From Octopus vulgaris (Eukaryota), in assembly GCA_951406725.2 (NCBI GenBank), contig OX597816.1:180606001-180670000 (forward strand): DNA of 64,000 nucleotides, given 5' to 3'. Position numbers: made by a program. Positions 35,058 through 36,274 of this stretch are shown piece by piece. Numbering within the stretch: the first letter of the stretch is position 1; each line of letters starts with the position of its first letter.

Positions 35058-36274
35058 TGTATACATATATATATATGGAGTATTCGTCCAGACAAACGGT
35101 TTCGATTAGCTCTTGGTAGTTTCATGGAAGAGTACAACAAGGTGCAAATTGTGTCTTTGGATGAAGAAACATCTGAATTCACATCAAGAAGCACATTTGA
35201 CCATCCTTACCCCACAACTAAAATCATGTGGATCCCGGATGCTAAAGGTGTATTTCCTGATTTGCTAGCTACCAGTGGAGACTACTTGAGAGTATGGAGA
35301 GTTGGGGAGAATGATACAAGATTGGAGTGCCTCTTAAACAATATACATATATATATATATTGTATACATATATATATATATATATATATTGTATATATAT
35401 ATATATATATTGTATACACACATATATATATATATATATTGTATACACACATATATATATATATATATTGTATACATATATATATATATATTGTATACAT
35501 ATGTATACAATACCCTCAATTGTTGAAATTATAATTAATCTCCCTCTAATTAATGCTTCGGATTTTACCGAAATAAGCATAGCGTTTGATGATTTTAACC
35601 CACGCTGGTGGAAAGGGGAGAACAGAAATTCTTCACTTGCTTATTTTGGGTTTGTTGGCACTGTTAGTAACGAGCGAATCTTCGAAAGGGTATGTTCTTA
35701 CTTTCAGTGTTTCCAAATCCAAACCAAGGAATTTCTGAGCTGAAGATAGAAATGTTGTTTTAACTAATCTTGAAACGTACGTACTCAAATAACCTTAGCA
35801 TTTGATTTTTTGATGTCATTACCCCCAAACTTTTGTGAGTTGAATTAAGCAAACACTATATATGAGAGAGATTTTCTTTACGTATTAGAAATGGCTTTAA
35901 AAAAGTTTTTTAGCTGCTATTTCTAATGAGTTCAGTATGCGGCGAAGTAATTTATTTTACTAAGCCCTTTTATATAATTGTATACATATATATATATATA
36001 TATTGTATACATATATATATATATATTTAATATACATATATATATATATATTGTATACATATATATACATATATTGTATACATATATATACATATATTGT
36101 ATACATATATATACATATATTGTATACATATATATACATATATTGTATACATATATATACATATATTGTATAATAATATAATACATATATACATATATTG
36201 TATACATATATATACATATATTGTATACATATATATACATATATTGTATACATATATATACATATATTGTATAC

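What the first reader, a model, noticed from the sequence alone, without database searches (positions are those of the whole stretch)
35076..35342. Intronless DCAF7/WDR68 coding fragment captured inside a (TA)n array
Seen: 267 bp of open, highly conserved coding sequence joined directly to TA repeats at both ends, with no splice signals, poly(A) or TSD, 1.6 kb downstream of a young RTE. From recollection (needs checking), vertebrate DCAF7 has introns within this stretch, which would imply an mRNA template. Inference: an internal cDNA piece used to patch a break in the TA array, or an RT template switch, which differs from ordinary 3'-anchored retrocopies.
Basis: partly seen in the sequence, partly recalled or inferred. 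Interest (0 to 1): 0.7.

Follow-up and report, generated by a model that had tools for sequence, protein, structure and literature searches.

The report
Orphan DCAF7 gene piece in TA repeat
A 267-base piece of the highly conserved gene DCAF7 sits alone inside a long TA repeat of what looks like an octopus-type genome, most likely as a dead patch left when a break in the repeat was mended, which is a known kind of event and only moderately interesting.

Summary
Window 35076-35342 (+) is 89 open codons that match residues 29-118 of cephalopod DCAF7 (Argonauta hians) at 88 of 89 residues, with one invariant Asn codon missing. TA repeat abuts both ends. There is no usable splice acceptor or donor and no A-run. 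No other DCAF7 exon lies in the 64 kb.

The window is cephalopod, not human. A PRKX-like kinase gene with canonical splice sites runs on the opposite strand. That makes a working DCAF7 gene here very unlikely.

One 7.3-kb TA array (29758-37053) carries three foreign inserts: a 5'-truncated RTE, the DCAF7 piece and an unidentified 480-bp island.

Best reading: a young, dead, captured patch in a breakage-prone TA array, most like human "class 2 templated sequence insertions".

An RNA template is favoured but unproven. Introns inside this stretch are shown only for other animals. No cephalopod genome was available.

One finding cuts against a random cDNA piece: the 3' end falls exactly on an exon boundary (118|119) seen in annelid and arthropod gene models.

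A template switch from the neighbouring RTE is not supported.

The parts
35076..35342 (+). Orphan DCAF7 coding fragment, residues 29-118 of the cephalopod protein. One Asn codon is missing near 35136-35141.
   Evidence: 88 of 89 residues identical to Argonauta hians DCAF7, tblastn E = 3e-54; no usable AG/GT splice signals.
33456..35075 (.). Left flank: imperfect (TA)n array with ATTG[C/T]ATACAT variant units. It contains a T19 run at 34088-34106.
35343..35505 (.). TA array between the two islands, about 5.5 copies of a 29-bp higher-order unit
   Evidence: TRF 35341-35491, period 29
35506..35985 (.). Second non-TA island of 480 bp inside the same array. Source unknown; possibly a second captured patch or a relic of unique DNA.
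   Evidence: sequence; no other copy in the window; no Pfam match in its ORFs; no Rfam match.
35986..37053 (.). Right part of the TA array, with the same TTGTATACAT variant units
31212..33457 (+). 5'-truncated RTE-type LINE copy inserted in the same TA array. It has an RT domain, 63-bp tandem repeats in the 3' region and a gatgatgat tail.
   Evidence: RVT_1, E = 4.8e-32, ORF 30864-32258
29758..31211 (.). TA array upstream of the RTE, with the same ATTGCATACAT variant as on the RTE's other side

Best explanation
This is a dead, orphan copy of an internal part of the animal's own DCAF7 gene, not an exon of a working gene.

Most likely course of events:
1. A long, self-complementary (TA)n array broke. 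Inferred.
2. The break was closed by end joining, with a stray piece of nucleic acid captured as filler. Inferred.
3. The filler was most probably a reverse-transcribed piece of DCAF7 transcript. This matches the 'class 2 templated sequence insertions' described in human cells: no poly(A), no recognisable target duplication, internal gene segment.
4. The same array also took in an RTE copy and a 480-bp island of unknown origin, so it behaves as a sink for insertions.

Shown: the identity of the piece, its isolation, the lack of splice signals, the lost invariant codon, and the array-insert layout. Inferred: the break, the end joining, and the RNA template.
For: Identity and isolation. The piece covers residues 29-118 only, and no other DCAF7 exon was found in 64 kb at tblastn word size 2, E <= 10.

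Not a working exon.
- There is no GT donor within 20 nt of the end, and the only AG lies inside the coding match.
- The two PRKX-like exons in the same window have textbook cag|...|gtaag sites.
- An Asn is lost that is present in 13 of the 14 named animal DCAF7s covering that position. The Rhagoletis protein P0110 has YTNK. The Coryphaenoides model P0102 lacks the segment.

Another gene occupies the region on the opposite strand. PRKX-like exons lie at 25775-25596 and 2065-1802. A real DCAF7 here would need its first exon more than 35 kb upstream, with those exons inside its intron.

Native and young.
- The piece is 99% identical to octopod DCAF7 but 84% to pig, chicken and turtle proteins.
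- Its GC3 is 0.39, against 0.32 and 0.36 for the PRKX exons.
- It has 0 changes at about 211 non-synonymous sites, so neutral divergence is under 1.4% at the 95% bound.

Array as sink.
- The array spans 29758-37053, and the same variant motif lies on both sides of the RTE and of the DCAF7 piece.
- TA arrays make up 7,201 of 64,000 nt of the window.

For an RNA source.
- All 267 nt are coding, with no non-coding flank.
- Introns fall inside this stretch in other animals. One follows K51 in fish and bird models, and possibly in a nematode. One follows G97 in a moth model.
- The break-point clusters among the 150 representative hits agree: 37 start at query residues 19-24, 21 end at 56-60, 39 end at 76-81.

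Precedent and RT source.
- Class 2 TSIPs lack TSD and poly(A), show end-joining junctions and can contain spliced exons (PMC5110952, passages read).
- Octopus vulgaris is reported to hold recently active RTE families: 13 families, 182 insertions (PMC13282606, passages read).
Against: The parent DCAF7 locus could not be examined. Intron positions in cephalopods, nucleotide identity and the true junctions are therefore unknown.

The 3' end of the piece falls exactly after N118. The following models point to an exon boundary there:
- The annelid model P0016 skips residues 119-156.
- The crab model P0069 reads LLNN then VR and stops, as a gtaaga read-through would.
- The leafhopper model P0042 loses homology.

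A random break in a mature mRNA would hit within 1 nt of any of about 7 junctions only about 2% of the time (my estimate). This coincidence fits a template that ended at an exon end, or a DNA copy whose intron starts with TA-like sequence.

Junction microhomology is at most 1 nt on the 5' side and about 1-4 nt on the 3' side, and cannot be fixed without the parent. A target duplication cannot be seen in TA repeat, so LINE-type nick priming is not excluded.

Breakage of TA arrays is known to me from human cancer work only, from abstracts in the listing. It was not shown for cephalopods.
Confidence: 0.5

Rival explanations
1. DNA-templated copy. The broken TA array invaded or annealed to another TA array inside the true DCAF7 locus, or a genomic DNA fragment was captured. 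The exon was copied as DNA. The TA repeat next to the piece is then partly the parent's own intron sequence.
For: The 3' end coincides with a conserved exon boundary. That is expected if homology simply disappears into TA-like intron sequence. TA arrays are very common here, at 7,201 of 64,000 nt, so ectopic TA-TA pairing is plausible. Island 2 (35506-35985) may be a non-coding DNA patch of the same kind.
Against: It needs TA repeat to abut the parent's exon directly, yet the donor GT and any acceptor are absent in the copy. The 5' end at W29 matches no known boundary in the named models. If the cephalopod gene has the K51|V52 intron, as vertebrates do, a DNA copy would carry it, and it is not there.
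Confidence: 0.2
2. Genuine exon of the animal's DCAF7 gene, either in place within giant introns or a true exon set in the wrong place by the assembler because its introns hold TA arrays.
For: Introns are large here: 23.5 kb between the two PRKX-like exons. The protein is perfectly conserved apart from one codon. The 3' end matches an exon boundary.
Against: There is no donor GT and no acceptor outside the coding match, whereas real exons in this window have canonical sites. An invariant Asn is lost. There is no exon for residues 1-28 in the 35 kb upstream and none for 119-156 in the 29 kb downstream. Exons of an antisense gene would lie inside its first intron.
Confidence: 0.07
3. Assembly or library chimera. 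The piece is not joined to this TA array in the animal.
For: Kilobase-long TA arrays are hard to assemble. The array holds odd features such as a T19 run at 34088-34106.
Against: A 267-bp piece would need two false joins that survive consensus. The flanks on both sides carry the same array variant. Read support could not be tested here.
Confidence: 0.07
4. Gene-fragment capture by a DNA transposon such as a Helitron, which inserts at AT. The DCAF7 piece and island 2 would be cargo of one element.
For: TA arrays are made of AT target sites. Octopus vulgaris is reported to hold 8 recently active Helitron families with 178 insertions (PMC13282606, passages). Two unrelated islands lie 163 bp apart.
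Against: I saw no element termini by eye at the island edges, but made no formal search. No second copy lies in the window. Cargo copied as DNA would normally include intron sequence.
Confidence: 0.06
5. RT template switch from RTE RNA to DCAF7 mRNA during insertion of the neighbouring RTE.
For: An RTE with an RT domain lies 1.6 kb upstream on the same strand, in the same array.
Against: Switches add sequence at the 5' end of the new copy. Here the piece lies beyond the 3' tail, separated by 1.6 kb of TA repeat. The RTE's 5' end at about 31212 joins TA repeat directly.
Confidence: 0.03

Closest known systems
Class 2 templated sequence insertions / TSIPs (Onozawa and Aplan; PMC5110952, passages read)
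   Same: Both are short pieces copied from a distant transcribed locus. Both lack poly(A) and a recognisable target duplication, and both have end-joining-type junctions. They may hold spliced exons and are read as patches on a double-strand break.
   Different: They are described in human cells and populations, not in a cephalopod. Here the recipient is a kilobase TA array. The donor could not be inspected, so neither RNA origin nor an intact donor is shown. The 3' end sits on an exon boundary, which that work, as far as I read it, does not describe.
LINE-mediated processed pseudogenes (retrocopies)
   Same: Both are copies of coding sequence away from the parent gene, apparently without introns, in a genome with active LINEs.
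   Different: This piece has no poly(A) and no 3' UTR or 3' end of the mRNA. Only residues 29-118 of 347 are present. RTE-type LINEs are, by my recollection, not known to mobilise cellular mRNAs the way L1 does.
Filler DNA capture at breaks (retrotransposon cDNA, mitochondrial DNA/NUMTs; cited within PMC5110952)
   Same: In both, foreign DNA is used as a patch in end joining.
   Different: The source here is a single-copy housekeeping gene, not organelle DNA or a retroelement.
Fragile expanded (TA)n repeats that form cruciforms and are cut (WRN-dependent cancers; abstracts seen in the listing)
   Same: Both are long, self-complementary TA arrays. One search shows extensive inverted-repeat potential around the piece.
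   Different: That work concerns somatic human tumour cells. Breakage of this array in a cephalopod germ line is inferred, not shown.

Membership tests
Functional DCAF7 exon / gene | Canonical splice acceptor and donor at the exon ends | tested here: not met
   the only nearby AG (35079-80) lies inside the coding match, and the first GT is 20 nt past the end; real exons in this window have cag|...|gtaag.
Functional DCAF7 exon / gene | Other exons of the gene colinear nearby | tested here: not met
   there was no further hit in 64 kb, and the next best E was 1.8. Exons beyond the window cannot be excluded.
Functional DCAF7 exon / gene | Invariant residues kept | tested here: not met
   One Asn of EEYNNK is missing. 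NN is present in 13 of the 14 named proteins covering the site; Rhagoletis has TN.
LINE-mediated processed pseudogene | 3' end of the mRNA with a poly(A) tail | tested here: not met
   the piece ends at residue 118 of 347 and is followed by atacatatat.
LINE-mediated processed pseudogene | Target-site duplication | tested here: inconclusive
   Both flanks are TA repeat, so a TA-made duplication would be invisible.
LINE-mediated processed pseudogene | Parent introns absent from the copy | not testable with these tools
   No cephalopod genome could be reached. Introns inside the stretch are shown only for other animals.
Class 2 templated sequence insertion (break patch) | No poly(A), no cryptic poly(A) signal use, no TSD | tested here: inconclusive
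   The absence of poly(A) is met. The TSD is unobservable in TA repeat.
Class 2 templated sequence insertion (break patch) | Donor locus intact elsewhere, so the insert is an extra copy | not testable with these tools
   It needs the rest of this genome. A full-length DCAF7 exists in a related octopod (P0002), which says nothing direct about this genome.
Class 2 templated sequence insertion (break patch) | End-joining junctions (microhomology, small additions) | tested here: inconclusive
   at most 1 nt is shared at the 5' junction and about 1-4 nt at the 3' junction. The exact ends need the parent's nucleotide sequence.
Class 2 templated sequence insertion (break patch) | RNA template (spliced exons in the insert) | not testable with these tools
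   As above. Support is indirect only.
Helitron or other transposon gene capture | Element termini and further copies | not tested
   I only inspected the island edges by eye and ran a self-search of the window (no other copy).

The most novel reading that the evidence does not exclude
The template was not mature mRNA. It was a nuclear splicing intermediate or nascent transcript that ended exactly at the 5' splice site after codon 118, that is, the free upstream exons released by the first step of splicing, with any upstream intron already removed.

Its 3' end annealed by one to a few bases to a broken or nicked TA array. It was reverse-transcribed as far as codon 29, and the product was sealed into the array.

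This would explain three things at once: the exon-boundary 3' end, the missing poly(A), and the pure coding content. It would be natural germ-line evidence that nuclear pre-mRNA species serve as templates for break repair in an animal.
Probability: 0.12. Interest if true: 0.6.

Novelty: new member of a known kind. Interest (0 to 1): 0.3.

Why it matters
If the RNA origin were confirmed, this would be a clean natural example, outside mammals, of a break in a long TA microsatellite patched with a reverse-transcribed internal piece of a housekeeping transcript.

It would also point to kilobase TA arrays, which fill about 11% of this window, as places where cephalopod genomes collect foreign DNA.

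The exon-boundary 3' end gives a sharp, cheap test. A genome-wide list of coding fragments flanked by TA repeat could be checked for an excess of ends at splice sites. That would tell whether nuclear unspliced or half-spliced RNA is the usual template.

As a single locus with an unexamined donor, it is for now an ordinary gene-fragment pseudogene. It has practical value as a warning to annotators, because it will attract false DCAF7 gene models.

Tried and rejected
1. Looking for the rest of DCAF7 in the window. tblastn of P0002 at word size 2 and E <= 10 found nothing credible.

2. Finding cephalopod partial gene models or genomic ORFs that would show the parent's exon limits.
- The search for shorter proteins listed 120 of 3,137 hits. 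None exceeded 95% identity and none was named as a cephalopod.
- The representative search listed 150 hits, none at or above 90% identity.
So the cephalopod exon structure stayed unknown.

3. PDB sequence search with the fragment: 0 hits at E <= 0.001. Pfam gave only a sub-threshold EIPR1 beta-propeller match, 22 bits against a cut-off of 54.

4. A splicing explanation for the missing Asn codon. Removing any 3 nt that yields the observed AAC AAG does not match a tandem donor or NAGNAG acceptor next to the K51|V52 junction (reasoned). Slippage in the AAC AAC repeat is simpler.

5. The idea that the TTGTATACAT motif right after the piece is the parent's own intron start with a lost GT. The motif occurs throughout the array on both sides, and also around the RTE as ATTGCATACAT. 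It belongs to the array.

6. Locating PRKX exon 1, to say whether the piece is intronic or upstream. Low-stringency tblastn gave only chance-level hits. The best candidate, at 26947-26967, has no donor and no ORF context.

7. Identifying island 2. It has no copy in the window, no Pfam match and no Rfam match in 29000-39000.

8. Literature. A search for 'DCAF7' together with 'octopus' found 0 papers. One paper reading failed on a badly formed search term and was not repeated.

No DNA-level search for the parent locus or for other copies was possible.

Full report
WHAT IS THERE

Window 35076-35342 on the + strand reads as 89 codons without a stop. A search of the 5.8-billion-protein set returned the 347-aa 'DDB1- and CUL4-associated factor 7 [Argonauta hians]' (P0002) as the closest match, at 99% identity over the whole query. 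Pig, chicken and turtle DCAF7 lie at 84%.

tblastn of P0002 against the whole window gives one real hit. It covers residues 29-118 at 35076-35342, with 89 of 90 columns identical and E = 3e-54. The single difference is a missing Asn: EEYNK in place of EEYNNK, with one AAY codon absent between 35135 and 35139. The next best hits have E of 1.8 or worse, so no other DCAF7 exon lies in the 64 kb.

The window has no N. I take it for a cephalopod genome, probably an octopod other than the A. hians reference. It is not human.

THE JUNCTIONS

Both ends touch TA repeat with no other sequence between...tatatatat|GGAGTATT on the 5' side, and ...TTAAACAAT|atacatatat on the 3' side.
- The only AG near the 5' end is 35079-35080, inside the Trp-Ser codons.
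- The last GT inside the piece is 35327-35328.
- The first GT after the piece is 35362-35363.
- There is no A-run after the piece.
- A target-site duplication cannot be judged, because the flanks are TA repeat.

The two exons of another gene in this window have textbook signals...ctgcag|GTGCTGG...AACAT|gtaagt and ...ttttcag|GTCATGG...GACAG|gtaagt. So the piece is not a usable exon as it stands.

THE SURROUNDINGS

TRF reports (AT)n at 29760-31210 and at 33456-37053. Between them lies a 5'-truncated RTE-type LINE, about 31212-33457 on the + strand.
- Pfam RVT_1 matches with E = 4.8e-32, at residues 181-385 of ORF 30864-32258.
- Only about 64 codons precede the RT domain.
- It has 63-bp tandem repeats and a gatgatgat tail.

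The same variant motif, ATTGCATACAT, lies just before its 5' end and just after its 3' end. The RTE therefore sits in a pre-existing array.

The DCAF7 piece likewise has ATTGTATACAT units on both sides. A second non-TA island of 480 bp lies at 35506-35985. It has no other copy in the window, no Pfam match and no Rfam match.

So one array of about 7.3 kb carries three foreign inserts. By a strict criterion, TA arrays make up 7,201 of 64,000 nt of the window.

On the minus strand lies a PRKX/PRKY-like kinase gene.
- Residues 100-187 of the A. hians protein P0233 match 2065-1802 at 96.6% identity.
- Residues 40-99 match 25775-25596 at 88%.
- The intron between them is 23.5 kb.

I compared these exons one by one and made no joined model. 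Exon 1 was not found. The DCAF7 piece is therefore either in PRKX intron 1 or upstream of that gene, and antisense to it.

WHY IT IS NOT THE WORKING GENE

A real DCAF7 here would need all of the following:
- a first exon more than 35 kb upstream, with at least two antisense PRKX exons inside that intron;
- a next exon more than 29 kb downstream;
- non-canonical splice sites at both ends;
- loss of an Asn that is present in 13 of the 14 named animal proteins covering the site (Rhagoletis has TN; one fish model lacks the segment).

I put this reading, including a true exon misplaced by the assembler, at about 7%.

AGE AND ORIGIN

The composition of the piece is native: GC3 is 0.39, against 0.32 and 0.36 for the PRKX exons. 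It shows 0 amino-acid changes at about 211 non-synonymous sites relative to the octopod protein. If it has drifted neutrally, that bounds divergence from the parent below about 1.4% at 95%. This assumes that the parent protein of this species equals P0002 over these residues. The only lesion is the 3-nt deletion. The copy is therefore young.

RNA OR DNA TEMPLATE

No cephalopod genome, transcript DNA or cluster listing could be reached. The listing of cluster members is off. The open DNA collection holds only bacteria and archaea. So I used faulty gene models of other animals as witnesses for intron positions.

After K51 (P0002 numbering):
- The fish Dissostichus model P0071 carries a 46-residue insert beginning with V and ending with K, as a retained phase-0 GT...AG intron would.
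- The bird Fulmarus model P0068 is disrupted at the same point.
- The fish Coryphaenoides model P0102 lacks VEEYNNK.
- The nematode Wuchereria model P0013 has a 33-residue insert there.

After G97: the moth Diatraea model P0085 has a 28-residue insert.

In the representative search, the best-stretch limits of the 150 listed hits cluster as follows (hand count from the table; these proteins are unnamed and I did not fetch them; contig ends and ORF calling can add noise):
- 37 start at query residues 19-24;
- 21 end at 56-60;
- 39 end at 76-81.

Whether the cephalopod gene is split there remains an inference. From general knowledge that lophotrochozoan genes are intron-rich, I would put it at roughly two in three.

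AN UNEXPECTED POINT

The 3' end of the piece, after N118, coincides with an exon boundary in protostomes.
- The annelid Paralvinella model P0016 lacks exactly residues 119-156. That is 38 residues, or 114 nt, the size of a skipped exon.
- The crab Petrolisthes model P0069 ends LLNN followed by VR and a stop, as a read-through of gtaaga would give.
- The leafhopper Homalodisca model P0042 loses homology after NN.

A random cut in a mature mRNA would fall within 1 nt of any of about 7 junctions only about 2% of the time (my estimate). There are three ways out:
- chance;
- a DNA copy whose parent intron begins with TA-like sequence, so that homology vanishes into the array;
- an RNA template that ended at the exon end, such as the free upstream exons of a splicing intermediate or a nascent transcript.

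The last is my most novel reading, at about 12%. The 5' end at W29 matches no boundary in the named models.

MECHANISM

I commit to the following: a break in a long, self-complementary TA array (one search shows the inverted-repeat potential), closed by end joining with capture of a reverse-transcribed piece of DCAF7 transcript.

This matches the 'class 2 templated sequence insertions' of human cells and populations. Those have no TSD and no poly(A), show end-joining junctions, and their donors include cDNAs with spliced exons (PMC5110952, passages read).

A source of reverse transcriptase is plausible. Octopus vulgaris is reported to carry 13 recently active RTE families with 182 insertions (PMC13282606, passages read).

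That expanded TA repeats form cruciforms and break is known to me from work on human tumours. I saw only abstracts of that work, in the listing.

My confidence is about 0.85 that this is an orphan, non-functional captured copy, and 0.5 for the RNA-templated version. DNA-templated copying stands at about 0.2. Smaller shares go to misassembly, transposon capture and a template switch from the neighbouring RTE. The layout argues against that switch: the piece lies 1.6 kb beyond the RTE's 3' tail, not at its 5' end.

VERDICT

This is a new member of a known kind (gene-fragment pseudogene, or templated insertion), with one curious detail, the exon-boundary end, that is cheap to test once the full genome is at hand.

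Still unchecked:
- the parent locus;
- read support;
- other copies in the genome;
- the source of island 2;
- anything in the closed metagenome and viral collections.

Noticed in passing
window 1802-2065 (-) and 25596-25775 (-): There are two exons of a PRKX/PRKY-like cAMP-dependent kinase gene. They are 96.6% and 88% identical to the Argonauta hians protein P0233, have canonical splice sites, and are separated by a 23.5-kb intron. Exon 1 was not found in the window.
   Followed up: partly
window 35506-35985: A second non-TA island of 480 bp lies in the same TA array, 163 bp after the DCAF7 piece. Its source is unknown. It has no copy in the window and no Pfam or Rfam match. It may be a second captured patch.
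   Followed up: partly
window 34088-34106: A run of 19 T (A19 on the minus strand) sits in the middle of otherwise pure TA repeat, about 970 bp before the DCAF7 piece. It is unexplained. It could be slippage, an assembly quirk or the tail of a lost insertion.
   Followed up: no
window 31212-33457: The RTE copy is itself inserted in the TA array, with the same variant motif on both sides. It carries 3.2 copies of a 63-bp tandem repeat in its 3' region (33096-33296). Similar GC-rich repeats of 67 and 130 bp lie at 15838-16062 and 14284-14556, perhaps from related elements.
   Followed up: partly
window 48067-50976: A second large TA array of about 2.9 kb carries a roughly 500-bp non-TA island (about 48860-49367). 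The island is bounded by an inverted pair of about 45-nt sequences (ctgcatataagacaggtttataac... / ...gttcactgacaaagtccgtgctgcatctaagacaggtttataac) and looks like a small element with terminal repeats. This is another insert in a TA array.
   Followed up: no
window 37055-37140: A short non-TA stretch right at the end of the TA array looks, from memory only, like a tRNA-derived SINE fragment. It is followed by C-rich low-complexity repeats up to about 37500.
   Followed up: no
window 55074-55340 (+): An ORF matches the HTH domain of Mos1-type (mariner) transposases (Pfam HTH_48, E = 1.6e-7). It is probably a decayed mariner-like element.
   Followed up: no
window 5066-5589 and 52000-54000: There is a long (ACC)n / 15-bp repeat at 5066-5589. 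There is also a C-rich, strongly skewed low-complexity block at 52-54 kb (GC 0.50, GC skew -0.59).
   Followed up: no
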